In this document: positions 8,626 through 43,222 of the stretch, in pieces
Position numbering within the stretch: position 1 is the stretch's first letter
Layout: every line of letters begins with the position of its first letter
Source of the DNA: an uncultured Gammaproteobacteria bacterium
GTDB lineage: Bacteria > Patescibacteriota > Microgenomatia > Levybacterales > UBA12049
DNA length: 64,000 nucleotides
NCBI GenBank assembly: GCA_964523705.1
Contig: CAZFYA010000001.1
Location: forward strand, 3,388-67,387
Direction: 5' to 3'
Made by a program: the position numbers and the translations under genes
The notes under the pieces: model-generated
Seen by the model: only the letters and a program-made list of their open reading frames with translations
Database searches by the model: none
What the model was told of the DNA's origin: nothing

Positions 8626-10263
8626 TTATGTGAATTTTCTTAATTTTATACTAAATAATACTACTATTGCCAGAAAAGATATAACGGATATCAAATTTGA
8701 AACTTTTCTTAGCTTTGTATCTTCATAAACAACTCTTACGTTATAACTTCCTTTATCTAAGTGAAAAGTCATAATTCCTCTGTATGTCATATTTTGAAAC
8801 TCTACATCAATTGGCTTATTATCAGCCGTTATCTTCCATCCCGGAAAATAAATAGTATTTTCCATAAATAAAGTATTCGTTCTTGCATCAATTTTATACA
8901 CATGCTCTGTGGTAGTTCTTTTTAATTCTAAAATGTCTGCATTACCATCAATAACCTCTAGGTGTGCCTTCGGTCTTTTTTCCATAAATCTAACAGACCA
9001 AATAGGAGAACTCTCCCCTGTATCTGTTGTACTCTCAAAAACACTTGTATAAAAAGACTCCGGTTTTATTAAGTATCCTTTTGGCTTCATATAATTTAAG
9101 CTTAATAAAAAAATAATTATCAACAAGAGTGGTATTATTATTTTTCTTAATTTTCCCTTTAGCAAAGAAACACTTAAAGCGCCAAGAAGAGAGGTAGAAA
9201 ATACAGTAATGGCTAAAAGCCTCCACGGAAATTGAAAGTTTTGCAAAACCATAATATTTCTCCAAATAAAATCAGATTCTTTTAACATCATAAATATTGC
9301 CACAAGCGAATACACTAATCCTCCTAAGAATAAATAGTAATTATCTTTTCTTTTCTTAAAAGAATAAAAAACAATAATTAAAGAGAAAACAATCGCTAAC
9401 CAATGAATCAAACCAAGCTGAAGAGTAAATTCTCCGGATTGACCATAACTCCATGGTCCATAAATTAAAGATTTAAAATCAACAAAGCGATTTACATATG
9501 TCCCTGAAGTTAGAACATTTCTTAAGGTATATTTTCCCTCAAAAAATGCAGGAACCCAAAAAAACGAAGATAAAGTAAAACCTAGTATGATTGAAAATCC
9601 TAATTTTACAATATATGATTTTTTAAATTTTAATTTTGACCAAAGAAAAATTCCATAAAATATTATAAAGGGCAAAAAGATTAAACTTAGAGCATTATGA
9701 GATAAAACCAAAAAAGCAAAAGATATTCCTAGAAATATCGAGTAAATATAATTTTCTTTCTTAAATAATTTATAAGTAAAATATAAAACCAAAGGTAACC
9801 AAATAAATGCAAAATTTTCCCCTATTGCTCCCCTAACATAAAGATCGACAAATCTATAGGGGGCATAGACATAAAGAACAGCACCAAAAACAGAAGCATC
9901 TTTTTTTAAAAATTGAGACAACCAAAGATACATAAAAATTCCTGATAGAAAAAAACCAAGCGCAAAAATAATTTTCGTTGAATCAACAAAATTAAAACCT
10001 ATTAAATGAAAAAATGAAGCAAAATATGAAGGTAGCGGATATAAAAACATTAAAATAGGATGCCCATATCCCCAATTAAGATTTCCTGCCCAACGAGGAA
10101 TAATATTCCCCTCAGATAAACTCTGATAAAAGTTAGCTATTCTTGCTACATGATCTCTTCCATCATGAGTATATGGTAATCCTTGATTTAACAACGAAAT
10201 AAGCGGAATAAGTAAAAATAAGACTAATACAATAAGCAAAAATTTGTTTTTAAACTTAGTCAT
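8626..10263 (-). CDS. Polytopic membrane protein, YfhO-related GT-C-like (family C, HD...FPxRW motif)
   Basis: 545 aa. N-terminal YTHDGRDHVARIANFYQSL...IPRWAGNLNWGYGHPILMFLYPL; C-terminal YFPGWKITADNKPIDVEF beta-sandwich motif shared with YfhO proteins; paralog of 37322..38803 and 39331..40860. Confidence 0.5.
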   Translation of the reverse strand: MTKFKNKFLLIVLVLFLLIPLISLLNQGLPYTHDGRDHVARIANFYQSLSEGNIIPRWAGNLNWGYGHPILMFLYPLPSYFASFFHLIGFNFVDSTKIIFALGFFLSGIFMYLWLSQFLKKDASVFGAVLYVYAPYRFVDLYVRGAIGENFAFIWLPLVLYFTYKLFKKENYIYSIFLGISFAFLVLSHNALSLIFLPFIIFYGIFLWSKLKFKKSYIVKLGFSIILGFTLSSFFWVPAFFEGKYTLRNVLTSGTYVNRFVDFKSLIYGPWSYGQSGEFTLQLGLIHWLAIVFSLIIVFYSFKKRKDNYYLFLGGLVYSLVAIFMMLKESDFIWRNIMVLQNFQFPWRLLAITVFSTSLLGALSVSLLKGKLRKIIIPLLLIIIFLLSLNYMKPKGYLIKPESFYTSVFESTTDTGESSPIWSVRFMEKRPKAHLEVIDGNADILELKRTTTEHVYKIDARTNTLFMENTIYFPGWKITADNKPIDVEFQNMTYRGIMTFHLDKGSYNVRVVYEDTKLRKVSNLISVISFLAIVVLFSIKLRKFT

Positions 10264-10264
10264 C

Positions 10265-11554
10265 TTAATAAACCTCCATGCCTTTTTCTTTTCTCATTAA
10301 ATAATAATAGTAATACGACTCAGGTACCCCCACTTGAAACTCTATTCTTCTTTCGCTATCAACTGCTTCCCTTGCTTTTTTTTCTCTTTCAACAAAATTC
10401 CCTTCATCCTTATATGGCAAAAATTTCAACACTCCATAATATGAATAAACAAGTAAAAATAATATTACCAAAACTTTAACAAATTTATGTTTTATGCTCC
10501 ATATTAAATAAATAAAATAGGATAAAATTAAAAGAACAATAAACCTACTTATTATAAAATAATAATCGCTTATCTCCCCGCTGTAGACTGTAAAAATAAG
10601 CCAGGGAATAATAAACCAAAGAAAAACAAGATATAAAAATCTGATTTTTTTTAATTTTAATGACTGTTTATAAAACACTATAAAAAAAAGAGGTAATAGT
10701 AAAAACTTGTATGGCTTAACTTTATCTAAAACAAGATATGGATCGAATTGAATAAATGCATCGCCTACAATTTGAAACATTCTTTGCAAATGAAAACCAT
10801 GATAATAAGTTGATAGATAAGAAGAAGTTGTTAGATTGACTGAATTATTAGTGATTAAGTAAATAATATTTGGAATTAAAAATATTAAAAAACAAGGAAT
10901 TGAAATTAATATATATTTTAAAGTTTTTTTGTTCTTAGGGAAAAAAGGAAGAGATAATAAAATTATTATTGGAAAGAAAATTGCCGTAAAGTGAAGATTA
11001 AAAGCAATTCCTGTAAAAATAGCCAGGGGAATTAATTTTTTAATATCTTTTGTAATTACTTTGTACAGAAAATAAAAAATTAACATCGAAACTGCCGGAA
11101 GAAGTTGAACAGGCCATTGAATCCCATCAAAAATAATTATACTAAAACAAAAAGTATTTATTACAATCGCAATTATTGCCAACTCGTAAGAAAACAATTT
11201 TTTTGCAACATAAAAAATAGTAAAAAATGTAAAAACACTACTTATAAATGAAATAGTTAGCGAAGCAGCAGGATTTAAACCATAAATCCAATAAAAAAAT
11301 GCAACAAAATAATAATACAAAGGACCAATATATATTCCGCTATTTGCCTTAGCAACCATACCCAAAAGAGGCCAGTTGTTGTTAACTATTAAATTCTTTG
11401 CTGCCCAAGCATTGTCTACCTGATCATATCCAAAAGGGTTTTTTATTTCAGCTTGATATGTACGAAGAAAAATTTCAGATAAAAAAATTATCAACAATAA
11501 AACGTATATTTTATTTTTTTTAATAAATTTTAAATATGTTTTTATTTTTTTCAT
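10265..11554 (-). CDS. Polytopic membrane protein, GT-C-like (family B, short member)
   Basis: 429 aa. FGYDQVDNAWAAKNLIVNNNWPLLGMVAKANSGIYIGPLYYY aligns with the YDxxRD...PLIGP...GP...Y core of the family B members 11554..13062, 19654..21135 and 23451..24953. Confidence 0.45.
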   Translation of the reverse strand: MKKIKTYLKFIKKNKIYVLLLIIFLSEIFLRTYQAEIKNPFGYDQVDNAWAAKNLIVNNNWPLLGMVAKANSGIYIGPLYYYFVAFFYWIYGLNPAASLTISFISSVFTFFTIFYVAKKLFSYELAIIAIVINTFCFSIIIFDGIQWPVQLLPAVSMLIFYFLYKVITKDIKKLIPLAIFTGIAFNLHFTAIFFPIIILLSLPFFPKNKKTLKYILISIPCFLIFLIPNIIYLITNNSVNLTTSSYLSTYYHGFHLQRMFQIVGDAFIQFDPYLVLDKVKPYKFLLLPLFFIVFYKQSLKLKKIRFLYLVFLWFIIPWLIFTVYSGEISDYYFIISRFIVLLILSYFIYLIWSIKHKFVKVLVILFLLVYSYYGVLKFLPYKDEGNFVEREKKAREAVDSERRIEFQVGVPESYYYYYLMRKEKGMEVY

Positions 11555-13062
11555 TAGTTAACTAATCTTTTCTGAACTGTTACTCCACCCTTTAATAATT
11601 TCGATCCGATTATTTGTCCATCTTCTTCTCTTGCCTCAAGCCACCATTTGGGCCTATCGGGGTATCCCTCATCCGGCTCTATAATACAATACATTATATC
11701 CGCCTTTTTAACAGGAGTATATCCGTACTTTTTTTCTCCATACCATATAAAAAGATATTGATAAGTATTATCAAAAACCGGTGGTGTATAAAGTTCGTAT
11801 TTAAAATTCTCTCCTTTTACATCTTTATAGATATAATCAACTACTGCCAGCTGATTTCTATAAACTGCAGCATCGCCTTCAAATAATGGTCTTTGAAAAT
11901 TTTTAACAAATGAAAACGAAATAAAATTTACTACAAAGAGAATGATTAAGATTAATATGCTAACTAAATAATTTTTAGTATTTTTAGAAAATAAATATAA
12001 GCTTATTGATAATAAAAATATATAAACAACAGGTAGCCCAACTAGATAATGCGGCCATATTGCATAAGTAAAGATAAGTGTGCCGATAAAAAATACTACT
12101 AGAGTAATAATTAAAGTTAAAATAAAATCCTTAATAATTTTTTGTGCTTTTTTGTAAAACAATAAAAGCGTAACAGCAATTAATATCAACAATATTAATT
12201 CTAAATATCCTCTTGCTGGTAAAAACGTGTTTGAAAATGAATCAAAATACGTAAGAACTCTATTTTCTAAAAAATGGTATAAATCCAATTTATCCTCAAG
12301 TGTCTTAGCTGATAAAAATGAAAGAGCGGATTTTGTCATTAAAAAACTGTGTCTTAATTCAAAAATTATTCTTGGTGAAAAAATAAACAACCCTCCAAGC
12401 AAAAACAAAAGTATTTGTTTTATTTTTATGCTTTTTTTTAAAATAACCAAACATGAAAAAACTATACCTAATGAAAATAAAAATCCCCATAAAATCTCAA
12501 TATCAATATTTAAGGCAAGAAGAAGTCCTAAAATAAAAAAATACCTTAAATTTGCTTTACTTTTTAATACATATATTCTCTCTAATACCAAAAATGTTAC
12601 AAGAACTAATAACGGAGCAATATTTGGATTCCAAATTTGAGAAGATAATGAAATTAATGTTGATGAGATCGCTGTTAACAAAGCCATTGAAATACCTAAG
12701 AAACTATTTCCAATCTTTTTTCCTAAATAGAAAGAAAGAATAATTGATGCTATTCCAAATAAAGACATCGTAAAAGCAATTCCCTGCGGATCACCCACAA
12801 ATACCACAAAAAAAGGAAGTAATATAAAATACCACCATGGACCATAAAAAACCCCCTGAATCCCTGTTGTAGGCCCAATTAGAGTAAGTTTATGATTATA
12901 AGCAATGTCCCACAGAGAAAGTAAGTCTCTTCCAACGTCATAAGTAAAAGCAAAAGAATTATTTAACACCCCTTCAAGCCTTAAAACTGAACCAATTATT
13001 AAAATAACTAGGAAAACGAGATTTTCTTTTTTAGAAAATATTTTTTTAAAAAGCTTCATCAT
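11554..13062 (-). CDS. Polytopic membrane protein, GT-C-like (family B)
   Basis: 502 aa, more than 10 TM. FTYDVGRDLLSLWDIAYNHKLTLIGPTTGIQGVFYGPWWYF motif shared with three paralogs. Confidence 0.5.
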   Translation of the reverse strand: MMKLFKKIFSKKENLVFLVILIIGSVLRLEGVLNNSFAFTYDVGRDLLSLWDIAYNHKLTLIGPTTGIQGVFYGPWWYFILLPFFVVFVGDPQGIAFTMSLFGIASIILSFYLGKKIGNSFLGISMALLTAISSTLISLSSQIWNPNIAPLLVLVTFLVLERIYVLKSKANLRYFFILGLLLALNIDIEILWGFLFSLGIVFSCLVILKKSIKIKQILLFLLGGLFIFSPRIIFELRHSFLMTKSALSFLSAKTLEDKLDLYHFLENRVLTYFDSFSNTFLPARGYLELILLILIAVTLLLFYKKAQKIIKDFILTLIITLVVFFIGTLIFTYAIWPHYLVGLPVVYIFLLSISLYLFSKNTKNYLVSILILIILFVVNFISFSFVKNFQRPLFEGDAAVYRNQLAVVDYIYKDVKGENFKYELYTPPVFDNTYQYLFIWYGEKKYGYTPVKKADIMYCIIEPDEGYPDRPKWWLEAREEDGQIIGSKLLKGGVTVQKRLVN

Positions 13063-13065
13063 GTT

Positions 13066-21731: not shown

Positions 21732-21733
21732 AA

Positions 21734-23434: not shown

Positions 23435-23450
23435 TTATAAAAATATATCT

Positions 23451-24953: not shown

Positions 24954-24971
24954 ATTGATTATTTATTATGC

Positions 24972-26633: not shown

Positions 26634-26636
26634 AAA

Positions 26637-28928
26637 TTAAAACAATGAGTTTGTAAACTCAATTTTATGTTCTCCCTTAGGAACAATTATGCCTCTGTAA
26701 TTATAGTCTGTTAAATAAATTTTTGTTTCTCTATTATCAATTGTAGCTTTCCAGCTTGGATAATACGAATCCGTTAAAACTAAAAATCCATCTCCATTAT
26801 TAGTGGTTTTAAGTATTACTTTGTTTTCCCCATATTCTAAAACCTCAACTTTTCCCATACTCCAATCATTTTTAAAAACATCTTTATTACCAACATTTTC
26901 AACAACCGCAACGCTGCTTAGAGGAATTTTTTCATCAAACATTACATTTATTGCCTCTTGCTTAGAGTTAATAAGTTTAGTATTTATTACAAAGAATGCT
27001 CTTGGGAATACTTTTGTATTTTCATAAACAAAAACACTGCCATTTTTAAAAACTAAATTTAACTTGGGCTCATCCAACTTATTTTTACTTAAGACATATT
27101 TTACATTTAAAAAATCAACTAATCTTGATGAAACATTTTGCGGTGTAATAATTCTATTGAATCCAAACGGAGGTGATATGTCAGGCTTTCCTCTGCCCAT
27201 TGCTGCCATAAATTCAGCATATCTTTGTAAATACAAAGGGTCATATCCATCAAGAGTTTGAAGCTTATACATTATTGAAAAATTAGGCGGAAGAATTGTT
27301 GAATCAGAGGACATTGTTCTAAATGGTCCTTTTTGTTTTTGTAAAAAGGAAGTAATTTCGGTTTTTGGATATAGATAGTCCTTTTTTGCAAAGGTTTCAA
27401 ATTTTAATCCGAATCTGAATAAATCAAATACCGAAATGGTGATTATTACAAAAACCAGTGAAAATAAAATTGTGTTTGATGCTTTTTCTTTTTTTCTTTG
27501 TGAATAAATAATTATTGCAAGAAAAGCAATTAAAGAGGCTAAAAATATTAAACTTGGGAGAATAAGATTATGTTTTGCAACATTTAAGTTTTCCGAAGAT
27601 ATCAAGCCTCCATTAAAAAATAAAACAAATGACCAAAGTAAAATAAAAAGTAAAAAGATAAATCCAAAGATATATAAAATATTTATTCTTTTTATTCTTT
27701 TTGAAAAATAATCAAAACCAAGTGCAGCTAAAACACTTAGACAAAAATCTGTAATAAATAAAAGCCTTGTAGGCTGTGATGTTGAAATAAAGGGTAGTTC
27801 AAATTTATACGGTAGTTTTGCAAAAACAGTTGGAAGTGCAAAAATTAATGAAATAAAAAATATTGTTCCAAAAAATAAAGTTTTTTTATCTTTTCTAAAA
27901 AACAAGGCAAAAAGAGCAAAAATTAAAGGAATTATTCCAATATAACCGATAAACTCTGCATAATTCCAGATACCAAAGTAATTAAGGGTTGAGGGATTTC
28001 CAAAAAAATCAGGAGCTATAAATTGAATTAAATTCTGCCAAGGAATAAACCACCCCTGGCTATTAAAACCAACAATATCTAAGCTTCTGGCTGAAAGATT
28101 TATGAAATTAACTGTTGGAAACCATTGAATAAAAGTAATTATTAAAAATAAGATAAAAAGAAAAATTAAAAAAATTAAATTTCTAAATTTCTTATTAGCA
28201 AGAATTAATTTCGAAATTACATAAAGCAATACAAAAATGGCTAAATAGAAAAAGGTTTGCAAATGACCTGCTAGAAATGAAAAAACCAATGATAATATAA
28301 ATACAATTGACCAGGATAAAACGCTCTTATTAAAAAGGCCTTTTTTACTAAAATAAAAAAACAGTTTATCTATAGACAAAAGAACTAAAGGTAAATATAA
28401 AGCTGTATGAAGCACCGTACCCCATTCAAGCCAGGCAATAAAAAAACCGCTAAATGAAAAAGAGAAAGCGCCAATAAAAGAAGGAGATTCTTTAAGCCCT
28501 TGGTTTCTTAAATACATATAGAGAAAAAAACCAGCTAGTAATGGTTGAAGAAAAATTAAGAAGCTAAAAGCATATTCAAACGGCATTATAAAAAATAAGA
28601 AATTAAAAGGGTAAAATACACTTGATTGAAAATTAGCAACAAGAGGTGTTCCTGAAAAATTATATGGATTCCATAAAGGCAAATGACCTTCTTTAATGTT
28701 TTCCACTGCTAAATGTTTCCATGGATAAAGCTGTCTTACAGGATCGGTTATTAAATGGTTTTTAAACGGAATTCCATTTGGGTTTGTTTTTGCATAAACA
28801 TCTCTAAACGGGTAATACATTCCAACAATAGTGTCTGTTGGAATTGGTAGCAGTCCCTTAAAAATAAATTGATAAAAAAAGACAACTACTAAAAGAAAAT
28901 ATAATACTGGAAATAAAAATTTCTTCAC
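26637..28928 (-). CDS. YfhO-family GT-C membrane glycosyltransferase (family D)
   Basis: 763 aa. N-terminal ...QLYPWKHLAVENIKEGHLPLWNPYNFSGTPLVANFQSSVFYPFN; C-terminal YYPSWKATIDNRETKIY...YRGIIVPKGEHKIEF beta-sandwich typical of YfhO. Confidence 0.7.
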   Translation of the reverse strand: MKKFLFPVLYFLLVVVFFYQFIFKGLLPIPTDTIVGMYYPFRDVYAKTNPNGIPFKNHLITDPVRQLYPWKHLAVENIKEGHLPLWNPYNFSGTPLVANFQSSVFYPFNFLFFIMPFEYAFSFLIFLQPLLAGFFLYMYLRNQGLKESPSFIGAFSFSFSGFFIAWLEWGTVLHTALYLPLVLLSIDKLFFYFSKKGLFNKSVLSWSIVFILSLVFSFLAGHLQTFFYLAIFVLLYVISKLILANKKFRNLIFLIFLFILFLIITFIQWFPTVNFINLSARSLDIVGFNSQGWFIPWQNLIQFIAPDFFGNPSTLNYFGIWNYAEFIGYIGIIPLIFALFALFFRKDKKTLFFGTIFFISLIFALPTVFAKLPYKFELPFISTSQPTRLLFITDFCLSVLAALGFDYFSKRIKRINILYIFGFIFLLFILLWSFVLFFNGGLISSENLNVAKHNLILPSLIFLASLIAFLAIIIYSQRKKEKASNTILFSLVFVIITISVFDLFRFGLKFETFAKKDYLYPKTEITSFLQKQKGPFRTMSSDSTILPPNFSIMYKLQTLDGYDPLYLQRYAEFMAAMGRGKPDISPPFGFNRIITPQNVSSRLVDFLNVKYVLSKNKLDEPKLNLVFKNGSVFVYENTKVFPRAFFVINTKLINSKQEAINVMFDEKIPLSSVAVVENVGNKDVFKNDWSMGKVEVLEYGENKVILKTTNNGDGFLVLTDSYYPSWKATIDNRETKIYLTDYNYRGIIVPKGEHKIEFTNSLF

Positions 28929-29995: not shown

Positions 29996-30024
29996 GTTTC
30001 TATTTTAGCAAGTTTATAATGCTA

Positions 30025-30054
30025 TTGCATTTACAAGAAGAGTAATAATATAAT
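30025..30054 (+). promoter_or_regulatory. Sigma70-like promoter (TTGCAT-N18-TATAAT) feeding a near-leaderless transcript for the 30061 gene
   Basis: TATAAT at 30049-30054 lies 6 nt before the ATG at 30061; no SD possible. Confidence 0.5.
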
Positions 30055-30060
30055 TAAGAT

Positions 30061-30297
30061 ATGAATGATGCTTATACAGGTCTTCCACTCCCCTCATATG
30101 TAATGTATATAATTATGGTCTGGTCTATAGTCTGGAAGGGACTTGCCCTTTGGAGATCAGCAAAAAATGATCAAAGGAATTGGTTTTTAATAATGCTTAT
30201 CATAAATACAGTTGGATTACTTGAAATAATTTACCTATTTGGCTTTGCAAAGAAAAAATTAACCCTTAAAGAGCTTGCGTTTTGGAAGACTAAATAA
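30061..30297 (+). CDS. Small 2-TM membrane protein (78 aa), the only opposite-strand gene inside the glycan cluster
   Basis: Two hydrophobic helices with conserved-looking Trp/Lys pattern (VWSIVWKGLALWRSAKND); own consensus -10; 3' end overlaps the start of the convergent YfhO gene. Confidence 0.45.
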   Translation: MNDAYTGLPLPSYVMYIIMVWSIVWKGLALWRSAKNDQRNWFLIMLIINTVGLLEIIYLFGFAKKKLTLKELAFWKTK

Positions 30298-32580
30298 AAC
30301 AACTCCCACTATTCCAATTACAAAAAGAATTAAACCGTTTTTAAAACTTTGAGGAAAATAATAAAATTCAACTAAATGTTTTCCCTTGTTAACTACAACA
30401 CCTCTAAAAGTATAATCAGTTCTATAAATCTCCTCTTTCTCCTCATTAACCCTTACATTCCAACCAGGATAATATGTGTCTGATAGGAAAAGCAAGGAAT
30501 CTGTTTTTGCATCAACTGAAAGCAAAATTTTATTTGGTGAATATTCTAGTATTTTTACCTCTCCAGGGTTATCATCAGATTCCTTAATATTAATGTCTTT
30601 TTCAACTACAACCTCATTTCTTAAATTGAAATCGGGCAAGAACATGGTATTTAGTATTTCTTTGTCCTCTTTTATTACCTGGTATTTATTAACCAAAAAA
30701 GCCCTTGGAAAAACATTGTTATTTTCAAGAATCTGATATTTTTCATCTTCATAAATTAAACTGAACGAATCCTCTTCATATTCCCAAAAAGGAAAAGCCC
30801 AAATTGCCCTGGCATCTGCCTTTTTATGAACAATGTATTTTATACCAAGTAAATTAATTGCCTTTGGTGTAAACTCTCCTCTTTTGGAAAGATGAACAAT
30901 TGACCTTTCAGGAGTCTTAAGTCTTCCATCACTTAAGTAATTTATAAATTCACCATATCTTTTAATATAAACCGCATCATACCCCTCAACTGATGGTAAT
31001 CCATAGTAAATTACAGTTTCCCCACCAAGGTTTCCTAAAAACCTATCATAATTAGACAATTCTTTAAGCTTTGTTAAAGTTTCTGTCTCTTTAAAAACCA
31101 AGTCTCTTGGATCAAAAGGCATCCACTTAGTTGCAAACCTTAACATATCAAAAGAAACTAAAATTAGTAATGCTGCTGAAAATAAAACAATAATTTTTTT
31201 TCTTTTTTTAAATTTAATTAAAAGAAAAATTAAAAATACAAAAGCAATATATATTAGAGTTGGTAAAATTAAATTCTGTCTTGCAATAATTGTTTTATCA
31301 AATGGTAAAACATTTAATAACACAATTAACCACATCGAAATAAACAACAAAAACATAAATAAGATTAATAAAAATATTTTTTTATTTACTCCCTTTTTAA
31401 TATCTTCAAGTAAATTATCAAAGCCAAAAGCAGCAAGAACACAAAACAAGAAACTAAATAGAACAATAATTCTACTGGCAGCACTGGTTGAGAGCACCGG
31501 AATTTTTAAAGCAATAATAAGTGATAAAAGAGGCGTATTAAACGCTAAAAGAAGAGCTATTATTGAAAATATGAATAAATAAAGTGTCTGTTTATTTTTT
31601 TTATTCAAAATGCTATAAATTGAAAGTATTAACGCTATTACCCCAATATATGCATTCCATTCTGCATAATGTCCAAACCAATCATTTCTGGTTACAGGAT
31701 TTCCATAAAAATCAGGAGACAAAAGCGTTGGTAAATAACTTATTGGGATTGCTTCAAGTTTTAAAAAAAGTCCGCTTCTTAAAGATGCAAAATATGCCTC
31801 AATTGAGGGAAGTAATTGAGGCATAGATAAAAGAAGGCCGAAAAAGGAATATAAAATACAAAATAAGCTTTTTTTAATATCTTTAGTTAAGAGATATTTA
31901 ATAAAGATATAAGCAAGTACTGATATTAAAAAATATAAACTGATTTGAAAGTGCCCACTAAAAAAAGATAAAGGAACTGTAATTGAAGTTAAAATTAAAT
32001 ATCTTTTTTTACAATTGTTAAAATATTTTTCAATTCCAAAAAGAGAAAGTGGCAAGAAAAGAATTGCAAAAGCTAAGGTCTCATAGCCCATCCAGCAGGT
32101 TATAAAACCGCAAAACATAAATGATACAGATGAGATTAATCCTCCGGCCGTTGATCTTCCTAAAGACTTTGTAAAAAGAAACATAAAAAGAGCAGCTAAA
32201 AGCGGCTGAAGAAGAACAAGAAGACTCCAGGCATCAATAAAAGGCAGGATAAAAAAGAACAGATTAAAAGGAGAAAGAACAGCTGATTGATAATTAGCAA
32301 TATGAGGTGTCCCTGAAAAACTGTATGGATTCCAAAAAGGAATTTGACCTAAAAGATAAGTTTGAATTGTAAAATGCTTCCATGGATATATCTGATTAAT
32401 AATATCAGGCATGGCGTTGTTTTTAACAGGACTGGAAAGTTCCTGATAAGTATTCCAGGGTGCAAAAAAATTTACCTGATAGGTTGAAGGATATGGAACA
32501 TTTCCTTTTAGAAAAAAGGGGGATGAGAAAATAAACCAGATTAAAAAAATAAAAAGGTATGACCAGTATTTTTTAAGCAT
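30259..32580 (-). CDS. YfhO-family GT-C membrane glycosyltransferase (family D)
   Basis: 773 aa. QIYPWKHFTIQTYLLGQIPFWNPYSFSGTPHIANYQSAVLSPFN; C-terminal YYPGWNVRVNEEKEEIY...FRGVVVNKGKHLVEF. Confidence 0.7.
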   Translation of the reverse strand: MLKKYWSYLFIFLIWFIFSSPFFLKGNVPYPSTYQVNFFAPWNTYQELSSPVKNNAMPDIINQIYPWKHFTIQTYLLGQIPFWNPYSFSGTPHIANYQSAVLSPFNLFFFILPFIDAWSLLVLLQPLLAALFMFLFTKSLGRSTAGGLISSVSFMFCGFITCWMGYETLAFAILFLPLSLFGIEKYFNNCKKRYLILTSITVPLSFFSGHFQISLYFLISVLAYIFIKYLLTKDIKKSLFCILYSFFGLLLSMPQLLPSIEAYFASLRSGLFLKLEAIPISYLPTLLSPDFYGNPVTRNDWFGHYAEWNAYIGVIALILSIYSILNKKNKQTLYLFIFSIIALLLAFNTPLLSLIIALKIPVLSTSAASRIIVLFSFLFCVLAAFGFDNLLEDIKKGVNKKIFLLILFMFLLFISMWLIVLLNVLPFDKTIIARQNLILPTLIYIAFVFLIFLLIKFKKRKKIIVLFSAALLILVSFDMLRFATKWMPFDPRDLVFKETETLTKLKELSNYDRFLGNLGGETVIYYGLPSVEGYDAVYIKRYGEFINYLSDGRLKTPERSIVHLSKRGEFTPKAINLLGIKYIVHKKADARAIWAFPFWEYEEDSFSLIYEDEKYQILENNNVFPRAFLVNKYQVIKEDKEILNTMFLPDFNLRNEVVVEKDINIKESDDNPGEVKILEYSPNKILLSVDAKTDSLLFLSDTYYPGWNVRVNEEKEEIYRTDYTFRGVVVNKGKHLVEFYYFPQSFKNGLILFVIGIVGVVLFSLPKRKLFKG

Positions 32581-34255: not shown

Positions 34256-34256
34256 A

Positions 34257-35165: not shown

Positions 35166-35166
35166 A

Positions 35167-36621: not shown

Positions 36622-37321
36622 TGTTTAATTCCCTCCAAAGAGCAAAGCTTTCTCTTATGGCTCTTACTACTACTCTTAAGTTTCCTCCGCTTTGATCACC
36701 AAAAATTCTTGGATAGTGAAAAACTTCAACCTGATTAATTTTAAGTTTTTCCTTTTTTGCCTTTGCTAATATTTCAGTTGTAATCATTGCTCCCTCCGAA
36801 TGAAAAGGCATAATTCTATTTAGCGCCTCTTTTTTAAACAACTTAAAGCCGCAATCAATATCTCTAAAATAAAAACCAAAGAAAAACAAATCCCACACTT
36901 TTAAAAGATTCATAAGTACGTGTCTAAAAGGATTATCATTTCGTTTTTTCCTGTACCCAATTACCATATCAGCATTTTTAATTTTTTTTAAAAACTTTGG
37001 AAGCTCTGAAAAATCAAACTGCCCATCGCCGTCATTAAATACAACCAGATTATATTTTGCATTCTCAAAGCCTTCTCTTAAAGCAGCGCCATAACCTCTG
37101 TTTGGCTGATGAGTTATTGCTCTTAAATTTTCATTTTTTGAAGCTAAGTCTTTAGCGATTTTATAAGTATTATCATCTGAGCCGTCATCAATCATTAATA
37201 TTTCCCATTTTTTAGCGTACTTTTTAGCAATAGGAATGGCCTTTTCAACAACTTTTTCCAAGTTTTTTTCTTCATTCCAAAACGGAAAAAAGATTGATAA
37301 TTCATCTACCTTTTGTGTCAT
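36608..37321 (-). CDS. GT2 polyprenyl-phosphate sugar synthase (Dpm1/GtrB-like), soluble type
   Basis: LSIFFPFWNEEKNL...LMIDDGSDDNT...HQPNRGYGAALREGF...NDGDGQFD...IDCGFKLF; 237 aa. Confidence 0.75.
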   Translation of the reverse strand: MTQKVDELSIFFPFWNEEKNLEKVVEKAIPIAKKYAKKWEILMIDDGSDDNTYKIAKDLASKNENLRAITHQPNRGYGAALREGFENAKYNLVVFNDGDGQFDFSELPKFLKKIKNADMVIGYRKKRNDNPFRHVLMNLLKVWDLFFFGFYFRDIDCGFKLFKKEALNRIMPFHSEGAMITTEILAKAKKEKLKINQVEVFHYPRIFGDQSGGNLRVVVRAIRESFALWRELNSGRN

Positions 37322-38803
37322 TTATTTTCTCTTTCTGGTATAAATTATACCAAGAACAGCCACCACTATACCAGCAAGAGAAAGAAGATTAGCATTTCTT
37401 TCTATTGGGGTTTCCTTAAATGAAAAGGCTTGTTTGTTTTTCAATGCCTCGCTAGCACTATTTGGTTTTTTTACTCCTTTTGGAAGATACTCATCTGAAA
37501 TCTTTGAAGTTGTCCACTTTAAACTGTATTCACTTGTGTAATCACTAACTTTTACATTTAGTATCTTTTGAGGCTGAAAAAATTTAGAATTAATAGTTAA
37601 AATTAAAACAATTAAAATCAGAAATTCAGCAAAAACTATTTTTTTATTTTTAATAAACTTACTTGTTAATGGAACAACTGCCCCTCCTAAAACTGCTGTG
37701 AAAAATCCAACCATATTTAAAAAACGCCAGGGGTATTGAAAATATTCCATTGGTGGAAGCGCTTCCCAAATAAACCTTGAGTAAGGAAGTGTTAAAAAGA
37801 TAGATAAAAAAAGGCCAATTGTTGATATTAAAAGAATAACAATAGATTTTTTTTCTATTTTTTTCTTTAATAATAAAACAGCTATTAGACCAACTATTGA
37901 TAATAAAACAAAAATAATGTTTAATTTTCCAAGCATAAAAGATAATCCGTCATTACAGCTTGCTGTTGATCCTCCAAAACCCCATTGACTGTACCAAAGC
38001 TGATTTATGCAGATAAAATGATTTCTAAAATCAGCTGTTTTGCCAATAGTTGATATAACATTTGTCCCTTCCATCTCCAAAAGCGCCGGAAGCCAATAAA
38101 ATGCGGATACTAAAAGTCCAAGAGAAAATGCAAAAATTAAATGAAGCGTATTAAGATTATTTTTCTTTTTATAATTTAATATTGCAAAAATAATAATTAA
38201 AGTTATTAAAAACGGAGTAATCATCATTGCGGTTAAGTTATGTGAAAGAATTACTCCTGAAAAACCAATTGCTAAAATAAGTACATAAAGATATTTATTT
38301 TCCTTAAATAACTTATACGCCCCAAAAAAACAAAGAGGAATAAAAGCATACGCAAAAAGTTCGCTTATTGCCCCCCTAACATATAAATTTACAGCGTGAT
38401 AGGGAAAATATACATATAAGAGAGCTGAAATTACTGCACCATTTTTACCAAAAAACTCTTTTGCCAGTAAATACATTAAAACTCCTGATAAAAGCATTCC
38501 AAATACAATCATTATTTTTGTGGCAATTAGCGCATCAAATCCTAAAATTACAAACTTTGCGCCAAAATAATATGCCAAAGGAGCATAGAAATTAAAAATC
38601 GGATAGCCTAAGCCATAGCCCAAATCACTTACCCATCTGACAGGAAACATGCCAACGGATAAAGATTTTGCCATTTCATAAACTCTTTGCACCTGGGTAT
38701 TATCATGCATTGGAAAAAAACCAGGCTGAAAAAGAGGCAAAATACTAAATATAGATAGTAAAATTACCAAAATATGAGGGATAATTTTTTTAAATAAAGT
38801 CAT
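37322..38803 (-). CDS. Polytopic membrane protein, YfhO-related GT-C-like (family C)
   Basis: 493 aa. FFPMHDNTQVQRVYEMAKSLSVGMFPVRWVSDLGYGLGYPIFNFYAPL; lacks the C-terminal YYPGW domain found in its two paralogs. Confidence 0.5.
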   Translation of the reverse strand: MTLFKKIIPHILVILLSIFSILPLFQPGFFPMHDNTQVQRVYEMAKSLSVGMFPVRWVSDLGYGLGYPIFNFYAPLAYYFGAKFVILGFDALIATKIMIVFGMLLSGVLMYLLAKEFFGKNGAVISALLYVYFPYHAVNLYVRGAISELFAYAFIPLCFFGAYKLFKENKYLYVLILAIGFSGVILSHNLTAMMITPFLITLIIIFAILNYKKKNNLNTLHLIFAFSLGLLVSAFYWLPALLEMEGTNVISTIGKTADFRNHFICINQLWYSQWGFGGSTASCNDGLSFMLGKLNIIFVLLSIVGLIAVLLLKKKIEKKSIVILLISTIGLFLSIFLTLPYSRFIWEALPPMEYFQYPWRFLNMVGFFTAVLGGAVVPLTSKFIKNKKIVFAEFLILIVLILTINSKFFQPQKILNVKVSDYTSEYSLKWTTSKISDEYLPKGVKKPNSASEALKNKQAFSFKETPIERNANLLSLAGIVVAVLGIIYTRKRK

Positions 38804-38857
38804 ATTTGTATTATACAGATAACAGGTTTGAAATAAAAGAAATTTAGCTATGATTTC

Positions 38858-39295
38858 TTAAGCAGAAGGTTGAAGGTTATTTTTTAAAAAATTTAAAAAA
38901 TGATTAGCTTGACCTATTGCATCTCTTGTATTTGTATAAACTCTGTCTTTTCTCCTACCATCATCATTTACATATGACCATTTGATTAAAGGCTCATCAG
39001 GGGATAAGACAACTTTTGAAGTATCATCATCTCCTCTAAGCTCAACTGAGATGCTTTTTCTTGGATCATATTTTACAATTACACCATGCTCGCTGCTTAA
39101 TCTAAATTCAACTAATCTAGTTTTATCCTCAGAATTAGCAGTAATTTCTTGATCGCTAAGAAGTGCTAATGCACTTGCTCTTTGAAACGCAGGAGATTTC
39201 ATTAATACTACTTTATAATTACTGTACAAGCCGTAAGCTTCTCTTGAAAGCTCTTCTTTTGGAAGTGACCTTTCAGCCATTTGTATTTCTGACAT
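38858..39295 (-). CDS. Hypothetical soluble protein (145 aa) embedded between family C paralogs
   Basis: No TM or recognisable motifs; has its own promoter (TTGACT-N18-TAAAAT) ending a few nt before the ATG. Confidence 0.5.
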   Translation of the reverse strand: MSEIQMAERSLPKEELSREAYGLYSNYKVVLMKSPAFQRASALALLSDQEITANSEDKTRLVEFRLSSEHGVIVKYDPRKSISVELRGDDDTSKVVLSPDEPLIKWSYVNDDGRRKDRVYTNTRDAIGQANHFLNFLKNNLQPSA

Positions 39296-39304
39296 AATCA
39301 GTAT

Positions 39305-39334
39305 ATTTTATGAAAAATTTAACCTAAAAGTCAA
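39305..39334 (-). promoter_or_regulatory. Sigma70-like promoter TTGACT-N18-TAAAAT for 38858..39295, near-leaderless; -35 embedded in the shared TCCCATAGTTGACTT element
   Basis: Minus strand reads AGTTGACTTTTAGGTTAAATTTTTCATAAAATATACTGATTATG. Confidence 0.5.
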
Positions 39335-40860
39335 CTATGGGACTTTTTGTATCTTAACTTAAATGCTAAGAATATTAATCCCAAAAATGAAACAAAAGAA
39401 ATGATATTTACTGTAAGTCTTAAATTTGTTTCTTTAAAATAAGCTTTAACAAAATGATTTCCCTTATTTAAATTAAATTGAATTAATCCAGAATCATTTT
39501 TATAACTAATCAAGACATTTTTATTATCAACTTCTAAAACCCATCCAGGATAATAGATTGTATTAATTGAGAGTAATGAATCTTTTTGTAAATCAGCATT
39601 AAAACTAACGCTATTTCCATTATTTATTAAATTAAAAACACTGCCTTCTCCTTTTAATATTTCTACCTTTTCATTTTTTGAAGAACTTGGGATTTCTTTT
39701 ACCCATTTTGGCATATATTCATTTTTAACAGTTGTTGTGTCTTGGTTTGTTGAATAAAAAGTATCTGGATAGTTTGTAAAACCTTTAGGATAGATAAAAT
39801 CTTTAGCATCAAAAATTAATAAAAATAAATAAATAATTATTAAAATTTTTTTATTTCTTCCCTTTAGGAAATTTAGCTGAAATGCTACAAAAAATGCTGT
39901 TGTTAAAATTAAAACTGAAATTAATCTAAATGGAAATTGAATAAAACTTGAAAACAAAGGCCATAAGAATGAGGAGATTGGAAAAATTAAAAAAAGACAA
40001 ACTACAGAAACTATAAAAAATAACCAATAATTTTTATCTTTTATTCTTCTAAAGATTAAAAAAGTTAACAAGAAAGAAAGTAAAAACACTAAACCAATCA
40101 GGTTTATATTCTGTAAATTTACAAAATACTCTGAAAAGTCGGATACCAAAACCTTATCAAAAATTACAAATCTTTTCTCTATAAGCGCCGGCAACCAGAA
40201 AAAACTGGACATTCCAAGGCCAAAAACTAAGCTGAATAATATTTTTTTAATATCTTTTTTTGAAAGGTAATAATAAATAAGAATTATCGGTAAAAACAGC
40301 AAAGCCAAGCTGTTATGAGAAAGAATAAGAAGTGCTATACCAATTGATATAAAAAATAGACTTTGTCTTTCTATTTGCCATAAGATAAACGGAACAATAG
40401 CCAATGCCAAGACCTCACCAACTGATCCTCTTTTATAAACATCCCATAAATGATATGGAAAATATAAATAAACCAATGAACCGATAAGGGATGATAAGTT
40501 ATCAAACTTTTTTCTAAGCCAAAGAAGTGAAAAAACAGCAGAAGATAATAGACTTATTCCAAAAATTATTTTTATCGTACTGACAAAACTAAAACCTAAT
40601 ATATGAATAGGTGTACCGATATACATAAATAACGGATATAAAAAGTTGGCAACCGGATAACCAAAACCGTTATTAAGTCTTGCTAAAAACCTTACCGGAA
40701 ATTGACCGTTTCTTAAGGCTTCATAAAATGCTGAAAATCGAATAATCATCCAGTTCCCATCATCAGTTACAAAAAATCCAGGCTTTAAAAGAGCGAAAAC
40801 TGAAGGAATGGATAAAATTAAAACAATAATTAAATATTTCAAAAGTTTCTTATTTTTCAT
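39331..40860 (-). CDS. Polytopic membrane protein, YfhO-related GT-C-like (family C)
   Basis: 509 aa. FFVTDDGNWMIIRFSAFYEALRNGQFPVRFLARLNNGFGYPVANFLYPL; C-terminal IYYPGWVLEVDNKNVLISY. Confidence 0.5.
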   Translation of the reverse strand: MKNKKLLKYLIIVLILSIPSVFALLKPGFFVTDDGNWMIIRFSAFYEALRNGQFPVRFLARLNNGFGYPVANFLYPLFMYIGTPIHILGFSFVSTIKIIFGISLLSSAVFSLLWLRKKFDNLSSLIGSLVYLYFPYHLWDVYKRGSVGEVLALAIVPFILWQIERQSLFFISIGIALLILSHNSLALLFLPIILIYYYLSKKDIKKILFSLVFGLGMSSFFWLPALIEKRFVIFDKVLVSDFSEYFVNLQNINLIGLVFLLSFLLTFLIFRRIKDKNYWLFFIVSVVCLFLIFPISSFLWPLFSSFIQFPFRLISVLILTTAFFVAFQLNFLKGRNKKILIIIYLFLLIFDAKDFIYPKGFTNYPDTFYSTNQDTTTVKNEYMPKWVKEIPSSSKNEKVEILKGEGSVFNLINNGNSVSFNADLQKDSLLSINTIYYPGWVLEVDNKNVLISYKNDSGLIQFNLNKGNHFVKAYFKETNLRLTVNIISFVSFLGLIFLAFKLRYKKSHS

Positions 40861-43222
40861 AAATTTTTTTAAAAGACAAAAGATAAATTAGAAAAAGTAT
40901 TAGCGCAACAAGTGATACTTTAATTCCAACGTCAAATGAGTAAGGATAATAATTCATTACCAGTTTATGTTCTCCTTTTAGAATAGGTACTGCTCTAAAG
41001 CTATAATTTGCCTTATATATTTTTACTTCTTTCCCATCAATAAAAGCTCTCCATCCTGGAAAATAGTTATCAGAAATAAAAAATAAGGCATTTTCATCTG
41101 TTGTTATTTCAAATTCAACCCTATTTGGCTCATATACTAAAAGTTTTATATTGCTATCAGTTATTTCTCCAAGTTTAATGTTTGGTTTTTCTTCTAAAAT
41201 TAAGGTTTTTCTTAAATCAATATTCTCATCATAAATTTTTGCTATTCTTTTTTCTTTTTCTTTTACAACTTTAAAGTCGCTTGCAAGATAAAATCTATCA
41301 AACACATTTTTATTCTCGTAAATCTGCCAAGGTTTTTTTTGCCAAACTAGCTCATATGACTTTTGAGGAAACGTAATGTAATCAGGTTCTATTTTTTCTG
41401 TTAATAAATCGTTTTTATGTAAAACATACTTTATTCCAAGTAAATTAATAAGTCTTTGCCGATAATTATTTGTTTTTAAATCCGTATCACCGTAACCTGG
41501 TGCAATGTTTGCATCAGGCCTTGGCAAAACTTCTGGTAATTCTCCATATTTTGATGCTGCCAGTAATTCTCCGTAGGATGAGATATGCAAGGGATCGTTT
41601 CCTTCAGGAGAAAAGGTCTTATCAACGCTTTGAAAGTTGGGTGGGATATAACCTGAACCATATCCCCAAAATCTACTTATATTTGCATTTTCCTTTAAGA
41701 AGCTTACAACTTCTGTTTTAGGATAAGTAAAGCTGCTTGGTGAAAAAGGAGTTATTTTATTAAAGAAATAAAAGAAATCAAAAACAAGAATAATAGTTAT
41801 TAAAACTAAACTTACTTTTTTTAATCTATTTTTAAGATAAAAAATGACAACAGTTGCAAAAACTAAAGCTGTTGGCAAAATCATGTTTCTTATTGCAACT
41901 TTAAAATTAATATCTGTTAAGAAACCAAGTTTATAAATTATAAAAACAATTGGAAAAATTAAAATTAAAAGAAGAAAAAAGAAAATTGGATATTTTGTTT
42001 TATTTTTATTCTCCATCCAGTAATTTATTCCCATTGCTCCTAGAACTATTACTGAAAAAATAAAAATACTAAGCTCCCTGGTTGGAATTGTTGTTGAGAT
42101 AACCGGAATAGGAAGTAAATAAAAATATTTAACAAGCGGAATATTTGTTGCAATTATTAAAGATACTGCTGCCAGAATAGCAAAAAACTTTTTATTAATA
42201 TCCTTTACTTTAAAAATGGCAAAAATTGCAAAAAATAAGATAATTACTCCCGGATACATTACTCTTTCAATATATGTCCCATCAAGATAGTAGTTTCTGC
42301 TTGCCGGATTTCCAAAAAAATCAGGAAAAACTACAGTTATCCAGTAATAAATTGGGGCTAGACTTTTTGAGAATTGAGCTAATGAGTAAGAACCCCTGGT
42401 TGAGTTTCTAAATATTTCAAGTGTTGGAAGTAGCTGAAATAAAGATAAAATTATTGGAAAAATTAAAGCACTTAAAAAAACAATGCCTTTTTTAATTTTA
42501 TTTTTAATCTTTTTTGAAAACAATAAAAAGAGAAAATATAAAACACAAACTGTATAAACATAGAAAAATCCCTGAATATAACCTGCCAGAAAACTTAAAG
42601 TAAAAACAATTACTAATAATAGAAAATCCTTAAGGCTTATTTTTTCAACTATTCTTTTTATTAAAAGCAAAGCTAAAGGAAGATAGGAAATAGTTGATGC
42701 GATATTTCCATACTGAATCCAAACCACCATATACGATGAAAAAGCAAAAGCTATCCCGCCTAAAACAGAAGCAAGTTTTTTAAGTCCTATTCCTCTATTT
42801 AGAAGCAGGAACATAAATACTGCTGCCAAAAGAGGCTGAAGCATTATAAAAATAGCAAAGGAGATATTAAACGGAAAAACAAAAAAGATTAAATTAAGAG
42901 GGTAAAATACAGCTGTTTGAAAATTAGCCATTTGCACATTTCCTGAAAAGTTATAAGGATTCCAAAAAGGAATATTACCATTTTTTAATTCTTCAATTGA
43001 AAAATATTTCCAAGGATAAATTTCTGTGATAACATCTGCTCCTTGAGCTTTATTAGGATAGCTTCCCGGTAAATATCCTAAAAAAGATTCAGAAGAATAA
43101 GGATTTGTATTTATTAATAAGTCTCCTGGAAATGGAATATATCCTTTAAAAATAGGGTTGAAAAAAAATAAAACAATAAAAAGAATTAATAAAAACGGAT
43201 AAAATTTTTTAAAAAATTTCAT
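40850..43222 (-). CDS. YfhO-family GT-C membrane glycosyltransferase (family D)
   Basis: 790 aa. EIYPWKYFSIEELKNGNIPFWNPYNFSGNVQMANFQTAVFYPLN; C-terminal YFPGWRAFIDGKEVKIY...FRAVPILKGEHKLVM. Confidence 0.7.
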   Translation of the reverse strand: MKFFKKFYPFLLILFIVLFFFNPIFKGYIPFPGDLLINTNPYSSESFLGYLPGSYPNKAQGADVITEIYPWKYFSIEELKNGNIPFWNPYNFSGNVQMANFQTAVFYPLNLIFFVFPFNISFAIFIMLQPLLAAVFMFLLLNRGIGLKKLASVLGGIAFAFSSYMVVWIQYGNIASTISYLPLALLLIKRIVEKISLKDFLLLVIVFTLSFLAGYIQGFFYVYTVCVLYFLFLLFSKKIKNKIKKGIVFLSALIFPIILSLFQLLPTLEIFRNSTRGSYSLAQFSKSLAPIYYWITVVFPDFFGNPASRNYYLDGTYIERVMYPGVIILFFAIFAIFKVKDINKKFFAILAAVSLIIATNIPLVKYFYLLPIPVISTTIPTRELSIFIFSVIVLGAMGINYWMENKNKTKYPIFFFLLLILIFPIVFIIYKLGFLTDINFKVAIRNMILPTALVFATVVIFYLKNRLKKVSLVLITIILVFDFFYFFNKITPFSPSSFTYPKTEVVSFLKENANISRFWGYGSGYIPPNFQSVDKTFSPEGNDPLHISSYGELLAASKYGELPEVLPRPDANIAPGYGDTDLKTNNYRQRLINLLGIKYVLHKNDLLTEKIEPDYITFPQKSYELVWQKKPWQIYENKNVFDRFYLASDFKVVKEKEKRIAKIYDENIDLRKTLILEEKPNIKLGEITDSNIKLLVYEPNRVEFEITTDENALFFISDNYFPGWRAFIDGKEVKIYKANYSFRAVPILKGEHKLVMNYYPYSFDVGIKVSLVALILFLIYLLSFKKIYEK

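What the first reader, a model, noticed from the sequence alone, without database searches (positions are those of the whole stretch)
8626..43222. Two YfhO-type families share a C-terminal YYPGW beta-sandwich but differ in N-terminal cores
Family D (26637-28928, 30259-32580, 40850-43222; about 770 aa) has the YfhO hallmark (YPWK...G.IPFWNPY...AN.Q.AVFYP). Family C (8626-10263, 37322-38803, 39331-40860; about 500 aa) instead has HD(G/N)...FP(V/R)RW...G(Y/F)G(Y/H)P...(F/Y)YPL. Two of its three members still end in the same YYPGW...D(N/G)K...I...(F/Y)RG... C-terminal module as the YfhO proteins. This module swap suggests the C-terminal domain (carbohydrate binding or ruler?) is a portable unit attached to different GT-C cores.
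Basis: seen in the sequence. Interest (0 to 1): 0.55.

Follow-up and report, generated by a model that had tools for sequence, protein, structure and literature searches.

The report
Shared tail domain in YfhO-like glycosyltransferases
Two families of membrane sugar-transferases in a Patescibacteria cell-surface glycosylation gene cluster do share a small C-terminal beta-sandwich, but their cores are related too, so this looks like common descent rather than a swapped module.

Summary
D1-D3 are YfhO (PF09586) proteins and C1-C3 are weak PTPS_related (PF10131) proteins. C1, C3 and all three D proteins end in the same roughly 80-aa [YF][YF]P[GS]W module; C2 does not. No other of the 54 ORFs in the window has it. 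Module profiles of the two families align at 99.0% probability (E 9e-18).

The "module swap onto different cores" reading is only partly supported.
- The cores are also homologous (97-99%). They align with the module in one collinear alignment and are each other's nearest relatives among the GT-C families in the window.
- The D family differs by two extra membrane helices and a roughly 170-aa alpha/beta domain.
- C2 has a clean internal deletion of the module, and its ortholog shares it.
- Among the 150 best of 33,184 database clusters carrying the module, it always follows a GT-C core. Module type matched core type in 76 of 76 units.
- Apparent stand-alone modules were truncated fragments; the one checked in its genomic context is a gene split by an in-frame stop.
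- Pfam's YfhO model already includes the module, and many C3 homologs already carry both Pfam labels.

The best reading is two diverged branches of one YfhO-like GT-C lineage. This is an ordinary finding of modest interest.

The parts
26637..28928 (-). D1, YfhO-family GT-C glycosyltransferase (763 aa). Has the module but no terminal membrane helix.
   Evidence: Pfam PF09586 88.4 bits; sequence ends 'EFTNSLF'; hydropathy scan
30259..32580 (-). D2, YfhO-family GT-C glycosyltransferase (773 aa)
   Evidence: Pfam PF09586 114.8 bits; AF2 pLDDT 88.2, pTM 0.89; Foldseek top hits STT3, ArnT, AftD, PglB; 1599 homologs
40850..43222 (-). D3, YfhO-family GT-C glycosyltransferase (790 aa). Its 3' end overlaps the C3 start by 11 nt.
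   Evidence: Pfam PF09586 110 bits; NCBIfam PgfM1 C-terminal match, E 8e-15; the same overlap occurs in L003
8626..10263 (-). C1, short YfhO-like GT-C (545 aa), weak PF10131 match, with module and terminal helix
37322..38803 (-). C2, short YfhO-like GT-C (493 aa) with the module deleted
   Evidence: the L003 ortholog (495 aa) also lacks it
39331..40860 (-). C3, short YfhO-like GT-C (509 aa) with module and terminal helix
   Evidence: Pfam PF10131 29.5 bits; AF2 pLDDT 91.6, pTM 0.91; Foldseek hits STT3, PglB, AftD, ArnT; 1248 homologs
8710..8967 (-). C1 C-terminal beta-sandwich module (aa 433-518, YFPGW at 472)
   Evidence: C-family module HMM (Cmod) 84.7 bits (partly self-trained); D-family module HMM (Dmod) 24.3 bits; YfhO Pfam positions 761-824, E 0.002
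39421..39675 (-). C3 C-terminal beta-sandwich module (aa 396-480, YYPGW at 436)
   Evidence: D-family module HMM (Dmod) 31.5 bits; AF2 strands 399-475
26646..26873 (-). D1 module (aa 686-761, YYPSW at 722)
   Evidence: YfhO Pfam positions 755-822
30346..30582 (-). D2 module (aa 667-745, YYPGW at 703)
   Evidence: AF2 strands 673-741; YfhO Pfam positions 755-834
40937..41161 (-). D3 module (aa 688-762, YFPGW at 720)
   Evidence: YfhO Pfam positions 752-835
39337..39420 (-). C3 terminal membrane helix and basic tail (aa 481-508). The basic tail places the module outside the cell.
   Evidence: AF2 helix 479-508; tail 'KLRYKKSHS'; positive-inside rule (inference)
30283..30345 (-). D2 terminal membrane helix (aa 746-766)
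   Evidence: AF2 helix 744-764; hydropathy
30586..31410 (-). D-family-specific insertion relative to C (D2 aa about 391-665): two extra membrane helices and a roughly 170-aa alpha/beta outer domain
   Evidence: gap in the collinear hhalign alignment; AF2 helices 400-486 and mixed alpha/beta 487-660
37421..37465 (-). C2 deletion junction (aa about 447-461). The flanks 'EYLPKGVKK' and 'FSFKETP' plus the terminal helix are retained, and about 55-70 aa of module are missing.
   Evidence: alignment A2, C-terminal columns
40759..40761 (-). C3 Asp34, invariant in 27 family members. Candidate catalytic Asp of the first outer loop.
   Evidence: invariant column D34; the role is inferred from knowledge of the GT-C fold
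32404..32406 (-). D2 Asp59, invariant in 26 family members. Candidate catalytic Asp of the first outer loop.
   Evidence: invariant column D59; the role is inferred

Best explanation
C1-C3 and D1-D3 are two anciently diverged branches of one YfhO-like lineage of GT-C membrane glycosyltransferases. They lie in a roughly 46-kb cell-surface glycosylation cluster of a Patescibacteria (Levybacteria-like) genome.

Both branches share one ground plan: an N-terminal multi-helix GT-C core with an invariant Asp in the first outer loop, then an extracytoplasmic 7-8-stranded beta-sandwich carrying the [YF][YF]PGW motif, then a terminal membrane helix with a basic cytoplasmic tail.
- The D (classical YfhO) branch has two more membrane helices and a roughly 170-aa alpha/beta domain between core and module.
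- The C branch is a minimal version.
- C2 later lost the module by internal deletion, and D1 lost the terminal helix.

The shared module is therefore best explained as inherited with the core, not as a cassette exchanged between unrelated cores.

Function is inferred, not shown. As in the CsbB/GtcA/YfhO three-component systems, neighbouring GT2 enzymes would load sugars onto polyprenyl phosphate, a flippase would export them, and each GT-C paralog would transfer the sugar to an extracellular acceptor (wall polymer, S-layer or pilus protein). The beta-sandwich, held next to the core by its own membrane helix, would form part of the acceptor-facing side.
For: Shown:
- Family assignments from Pfam.
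- Module homology between C and D: 99.0%, E 8.8e-18; D-only HMM on C1 and C3.
- Core homology: 98.9% and 97.1% probability, in one collinear alignment that runs into the module and terminal helix.
- C and D are each other's best-scoring partners among the six GT-C groups in the window.
- AF2 models are confident (pLDDT 91.6 and 88.2) and show the same order of strands followed by a terminal helix.
- Both models have STT3 (8age_A) as top PDB hit, followed by PglB, AftD, ArnT and AftA.
- C2 retains both flanks of the module, and its ortholog in L003 lacks the module too.
- Module type equals core type in 76 of 76 units from the 150 best database representatives. The module tree gives pure C (56/56), D (25/25) and X (5/5) clades.
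- Short hits are N-truncated fragments whose upstream residues match the expected family.
- The 'stand-alone' P0140 is a C1 ortholog split by an in-frame TAG.
- Architecture and gene order are conserved: 1248 and 1599 homologs, and a syntenic locus L003.
- Basic C-terminal tails follow the last helix.

Context for the functional inference:
- 9 GT2, 2 GT4 and 2 Wzx-like flippase genes plus sugar-nucleotide genes.
- Membrane-anchored GT2 genes lie directly downstream of C1 and D1.
- The three-component model is described in PMC7389260.
Against: - The module is more conserved per column than the core: a similar hhalign score over 70 columns as over 277.
- In family X the module aligns at 95-96% while the core aligns only at E about 0.009. 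This is also what one ancient transfer of the module between already distinct GT-C lineages would give.
- The census covers only the 150 best of 33,184 clusters and is biased to relatives of the query.
- All GT-C cores are distantly homologous, so core homology alone does not prove that the ancestor already had the module.
- No structural superposition of the two modules could be made.
- The position of the YYPGW motif relative to the active site was not examined, because no coordinates were available.
- No function has been tested for any Patescibacteria member.
Confidence: 0.7

Rival explanations
1. Ancient domain shuffling. The beta-sandwich plus membrane anchor is an autonomous acceptor-binding or carbohydrate-binding cassette. 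It was acquired independently, once each and long ago, by distinct GT-C cores: YfhO, the PF10131-like short family, and family X.
For: The module is the best-conserved part. Family X shares the module, but its core is not significantly alignable. Pfam assigns the cores to different families. C2 and D1 show that the C-terminal region can be remodelled without loss of the gene.
Against: The cores are homologous, collinear and nearest neighbours. The module is always at the same place, after the last core helix and before a terminal helix. The module tree mirrors core type with no mixing. No case outside a GT-C context was found among the 150 best hits. None of the 11 other GT-C genes in the same window carries it.
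Confidence: 0.22
2. Recent exchange within this genome: recombination or gene conversion between neighbouring paralogs such as D3 and C3 copied the YfhO tail onto C genes.
For: D3 and C3 are adjacent and overlap by 11 nt. The cluster is full of tandem paralogs.
Against: C and D modules are only about 25-34% identical. The C-type module is conserved in more than 1000 homologs from many Patescibacteria and forms its own clade. The arrangement is syntenic in another genome.
Confidence: 0.02
3. Chance or convergence: a short aromatic motif in low-GC, compositionally biased membrane proteins.
For: The genome is about 29% GC, and the motif itself is only 5 residues.
Against: The similarity spans 70 columns at E 8.8e-18. 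The D-only HMM hits only C1 and C3 among 54 ORFs of the same composition. AF2 predicts matching strand order.
Confidence: 0.01

Closest known systems
YfhO family (PF09586): B. subtilis and S. aureus YfhO, Listeria Lmo1079, S. mutans PgfM1/PgfM2
   Same: D1-D3 are members by Pfam score. They share the GT-C core and the C-terminal module, which corresponds to Pfam model positions about 752-835 and to the C-terminus of the NCBIfam PgfM1 model. The genomic setting, with GT2 and flippase genes, fits the three-component scheme (PMC7389260).
   Different: They are only about 10-15% of the way to the NCBIfam equivalog cut-offs, so they are not orthologs of any characterised enzyme. The acceptor is unknown. 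The host is a Patescibacteria genome with three YfhO paralogs in one cluster.
PTPS_related (PF10131), an uncharacterised GT-C clan family
   Same: C1-C3 pass the gathering score over model positions about 1-338, the generic GT-C N-terminal half. NCBI names some orthologs '6-pyruvoyl-tetrahydropterin synthase-related protein'.
   Different: Scores are marginal (29-49 bits). The C-terminal half of the model is not matched. Many orthologs have no Pfam label, or only PF09586. By profile-profile comparison the nearest family in the window is YfhO.
'Component 27' YfhO-like glycosyltransferase family (Durairaj et al. 2023, PMC10584680)
   Same: That is a published case of transmembrane proteins labelled YfhO in InterPro whose structures differ from canonical YfhO and which form a separate family within the STT3/PglB/YfhO superfamily. 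It is the same kind of situation as family C and family X here.
   Different: Median length is 665 aa there, against about 510 aa for family C.
Oligosaccharyltransferases STT3/PglB/AglB
   Same: Best structural matches of both AF2 models. They have the same overall logic: a GT-C membrane core followed by a C-terminal extracytoplasmic domain with a conserved aromatic motif (WWDYG) that contacts the acceptor (my own knowledge).
   Different: TM-scores are only about 0.4-0.5. The OST periplasmic domain is larger, is mixed alpha/beta and is not followed by a terminal membrane helix. No sequence similarity was found.

Membership tests
YfhO (PF09586), for D1-D3 | Whole-protein score above the Pfam gathering cut-off, with coverage of both the core and the C-terminus | tested here: met
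   88.4, 114.8 and 110 bits against a 28.5 cut-off; model positions 66-604 plus 752-835 matched
YfhO (PF09586), for D1-D3 | GT-C fold with an invariant acidic residue in the first outer loop | tested here: met
   AF2 model pLDDT 88.2; Foldseek hits to STT3, ArnT, AftD and PglB at E 1e-6 to 1e-4; D59 invariant in 26 sequences. A catalytic role for D59 was not tested.
YfhO (PF09586), for D1-D3 | Transfer of a sugar from a polyprenyl-phosphate-sugar to an extracellular polymer or protein | not testable with these tools
   Only context is available: GT2, Wzx-like and sugar-nucleotide genes in the cluster
YfhO (PF09586), for C1-C3 | Whole-protein score above the Pfam gathering cut-off | tested here: not met
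   No YfhO hit for the full-length proteins. The C1 tail alone scores 17.1 bits against a 28.5 cut-off, and the C3 tail gives no hit. Some orthologs carry a precomputed PF09586 label.
YfhO-like lineage in the wider sense, for C1-C3 | Profile-level homology of both the core and the C-terminal module to YfhO, in collinear order | tested here: met
   hhalign 98.9%, E 2.5e-17; core alone 97.1%; module alone 99.0%. C2 meets this for the core only.
PTPS_related (PF10131), for C1-C3 | Whole-protein score above the gathering cut-off | tested here: met
   34.9, 48.9 and 29.5 bits against a 26.4 cut-off, but only model positions 1-338 of 621 are matched
GT-C fold superfamily, for C3 | Predicted structure matches solved GT-C enzymes | tested here: met
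   AF2 pLDDT 91.6, pTM 0.91; Foldseek hits to STT3, PglB, AftD, ArnT and AftA, 15 hits at E <= 1e-3

The most novel reading that the evidence does not exclude
Family C is a distinct 'minimal YfhO' family that Pfam covers poorly. Its named close homologs are almost all from Patescibacteria. Its only extracytoplasmic domain is the YYPGW beta-sandwich. The module would be the acceptor-specificity element of the whole YfhO-like superfamily. The conserved adjacent pair C3 (with module) and C2 (module cleanly deleted) would then be a natural with/without experiment, and the module could have moved between GT-C lineages at least once in deep time (family X).
Probability: 0.25. Interest if true: 0.45.

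Novelty: new member of a known kind. Interest (0 to 1): 0.25.

Why it matters
- It clarifies annotation. Roughly 500-aa Patescibacteria proteins labelled 'PTPS-related', 'YfhO' or left unlabelled are one conserved family of short YfhO-like GT-C glycosyltransferases. YfhO Pfam hits confined to the last 80 residues reflect a shared tail domain, not a full YfhO.
- It gives a tractable question about what the YfhO C-terminal domain does. Natural variants lack it (C2) or lack its membrane anchor (D1).
- It does not reveal a new kind of system.

Tried and rejected
- **Module-only word-index search.** It returned only fragments of 153 aa or less, so it said nothing about architecture. The exhaustive profile search replaced it.
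- **Stand-alone module proteins as evidence of portability.** Rejected. P0140 is the 3' part of a C1 ortholog split by an in-frame TAG. The other short hits form a continuous length series, and where residues upstream of the module matched a profile it was always that of the same family.
- **The search for related loci with the module alignment.** It failed because no stretch was conserved enough, so no taxon-wide locus census was made.
- **PDB sequence searches.** They found nothing.
- **Recent gene conversion between neighbouring paralogs.** Rejected on about 30% module identity and separate module clades.
- **The 145-aa ORF between C3 and C2 (38858-39295) as a displaced module.** Rejected. 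It is hydrophilic, has no Pfam match and has no module motif.
Full report
**What is in the window.** The sequence is about 29% GC. From 186 to 49922 nearly every gene lies on the minus strand. Homolog names place it in Patescibacteria, close to Candidatus Levybacteria. The exact proteins occur on a 252,136-bp NCBI contig.

Positions 186-46738 form one very large glycosylation cluster. It contains:
- sugar-nucleotide genes: two epimerase/dehydratases, a nucleotidyltransferase, a DegT aminotransferase and an RmlC-like epimerase;
- 9 GT2 and 2 GT4 glycosyltransferases;
- 2 Wzx-like flippases and a methyltransferase;
- 17 GT-C membrane glycosyltransferases: 3 YfhO, 3 PF10131-like, 10 PMT_2-like in several paralog groups, and 1 GT87/MptA_B-like.

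**Check of the observation.** Pfam assigns D1-D3 to YfhO at 88-115 bits. It assigns C1-C3 to PTPS_related at 29.5-48.9 bits, over the N-terminal half of that model only.

The motif [YFW][YFW]P[GSA]W occurs in just five of 54 ORFs: C1, C3, D1, D2 and D3. It always lies near the C-terminus. An HMM made only from the three D tails scores C1 and C3 at about 37.5 bits and nothing else above 5 bits. In pairwise BLAST the tail is the only clearly significant similarity between C and D proteins. Profiles of the module alone, built from 27 C-family and 26 D-family sequences, align at 99.0% probability, E 8.8e-18, over 70 columns at 30% identity. C2 lacks the module.

**Structure.** AF2 with family alignments gave confident models: C3 at pLDDT 91.6 and pTM 0.91, D2 at 88.2 and 0.89. 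The two tails have matching strand order:

| | Strands | Terminal helix |
|---|---|---|
| C3 | 399-403, 406-413, 417-424, 428-435, 440-444, 447-449, 459-464, 467-475 | 479-508 |
| D2 | 673-680, 684-691, 695-702, 707-711, 714-716, 719-721, 725-730, 733-741 | 744-764 |

The tails after the last helix are basic (KLRYKKSHS, PKRKLFKG, and so on). By the positive-inside rule this puts the beta-sandwich outside the cell.

Both models have yeast STT3 (8age_A) as their best solved match, followed by PglB, AftD, ArnT and AftA, so both are GT-C enzymes. No solved structure is related by sequence. The module by itself gave only weak local matches to small beta-sandwich or cupin-like domains (E > 0.1). A carbohydrate-binding assignment is therefore untested.

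**Are the cores really different?** They differ only in degree.
- The family profiles align at 98.9% probability (E 2.5e-17). The cores alone align at 97.1% (E 6e-11 over 277 columns).
- Without realignment, hhalign returns a single collinear alignment from C3 aa 90 to 509 and D2 aa 112 to 773. It has one large D-specific insertion, D2 about 391-665. AF2 shows this insertion as two extra membrane helices plus an alpha/beta domain.
- Each family has an invariant Asp about 30 residues after the first helix: D34 in C3 and D59 in D2.
- With profiles built only from window paralogs, C-D is the best-scoring pair for both families. It scores 105 (E 8e-13), against 71.5 for C versus the main PMT_2 group and 32.6 (not significant) for D versus that group.

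**History of the module.**
- C2 keeps the residues on both sides of the module (EYLPKGVKK ... FSFKETP plus the terminal helix) but lacks the module between them.
- Its ortholog in a second genome (L003, 495 aa) is the same. C2 is thus a stable deletion derivative.
- The C3-type architecture is conserved in the listed homologs, which are 493-540 aa long. Many already carry both PF10131 and PF09586 in precomputed Pfam annotation.
- The gene order Lon ... PMT_2, YfhO(791), C3 ortholog (11-nt overlap), C2 ortholog, GT2, Wzx ... YfhO(775) is conserved in L003.

**Test of portability.** An exhaustive profile search of 1.84 billion representatives found 33,184 clusters carrying the module at E <= 1e-3, and 3,971 at E <= 1e-10. 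I classified the best 150 with local HMMs.
- Every unit with a recognisable core was either C-core plus C-type module or D-core plus D-type module. Core type and module type agreed in 76 of 76 units.
- A neighbour-joining tree of the modules gave pure clades for C (56/56), D (25/25) and a third family X (5/5).
- Hits under 400 aa are N-terminally truncated fragments whose upstream residues match the corresponding family.
- Proteins of 1000-3300 aa are chains of two to four such units.
- The 'stand-alone' 149-aa P0140 is the tail of a C1 ortholog cut by an in-frame TAG.

Family X is about 700 aa, comes from high-GC organisms and has no Pfam core hit. Its module aligns to C and D at 95-96.5%, while its core aligns only at E about 0.009. 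This is the one result that leaves room for an ancient transfer, or for a module that simply evolves more slowly than the membrane core.

**Interpretation.** The most economical account is one ancestral YfhO-like plan (GT-C core, outer beta-sandwich, terminal anchor helix) that diverged into a long form (D, classical YfhO) and a short form (C). C2 later lost the module and D1 lost the anchor.

Function is inferred. It rests on the characterised CsbB/GtcA/YfhO and Pgf systems (PMC7389260; NCBIfam PgfM1/M2 tail matches) and on the surrounding genes, including membrane-anchored GT2 genes directly downstream of C1 and D1. The proposed mechanism is polyprenyl-phosphate-sugar-dependent glycosylation of an extracellular acceptor, with the beta-sandwich on the acceptor side. 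Which acceptor, and what the module contributes, remain unknown.

**Relation to what is known.**
- Pfam's YfhO model already includes the module at positions about 752-835.
- YfhO-like families with divergent structures have been described (PMC10584680).
- PF10131 is a recognised GT-C clan member whose first roughly 300 positions behave as a generic GT-C N-terminus (PMC7801869).

The finding is a correct and tidy domain-level observation. It adds a poorly annotated short branch to a known lineage rather than revealing a new mechanism.

Noticed in passing
window 186-46738: One roughly 46-kb, almost entirely co-directional cluster holds 17 GT-C membrane glycosyltransferases, 9 GT2, 2 GT4, 2 Wzx-like flippases, a methyltransferase and sugar-nucleotide genes. 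That is a very large investment for a Patescibacteria genome. The cluster is flanked by Lon protease and housekeeping genes.
   Followed up: partly
window 13066-19670 and 21734-23434; 11554-13062, 19654-21135, 23451-24953: There are tandem arrays of PMT_2-like paralogs: five members at 26-38% identity and a second group of three at 28-42%. The 11554-13062 member has no Pfam hit at all. None carries the YYPGW module.
   Followed up: partly
window 38804-39330 (ORF 38858-39295, minus strand): A 527-nt spacer between C3 and C2 contains a hydrophilic 145-aa ORF with no Pfam match. In the syntenic locus L003 the two genes are only 42 nt apart, so this segment looks like an insertion.
   Followed up: partly
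L001/L002 3792-5450: A C1 ortholog in two Gottesmanbacteria-type assemblies is interrupted by an in-frame TAG (PKG*LVKDESFY) exactly at the boundary between the membrane core and the outer tail. The result is a 401-aa core gene and a 149-aa module gene. It could be a pseudogene, a real split or a sequencing artefact.
   Followed up: partly
P0322, P0323, P0324 and other 1000-3300-aa representatives: Very long predicted proteins consist of two to four complete GT-C units in series, each unit with its own module. They may be true fusions or read-through gene calls. P0383 (286 aa) has two modules in tandem.
   Followed up: no
P0342, P0354 and P0386 aa 1-720; P0323 aa 1-715 and 716-1515: A third family (X) of about 700 aa from high-GC organisms has an LNDGV.H...GYP.FHYYQHLPY N-terminus and a YHP[GSN]WHA.VDG tail. 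It has no Pfam core match. It may correspond to the 'component 27' YfhO-like family of PMC10584680, but this was not tested.
   Followed up: partly
window 26637-26650 (D1 C-terminus): D1 stops immediately after the module (…EFTNSLF) and lacks the terminal membrane helix present in C1, C3, D2 and D3. The next gene, a membrane-anchored GT2, starts 4 nt downstream.
   Followed up: partly
window 52429-52797 (minus strand): A 122-aa prokaryotic diacylglycerol-kinase-family protein (PF01219) lies a few kb from the cluster. Members of this family include undecaprenol kinases, which could feed the lipid-carrier pool.
   Followed up: no
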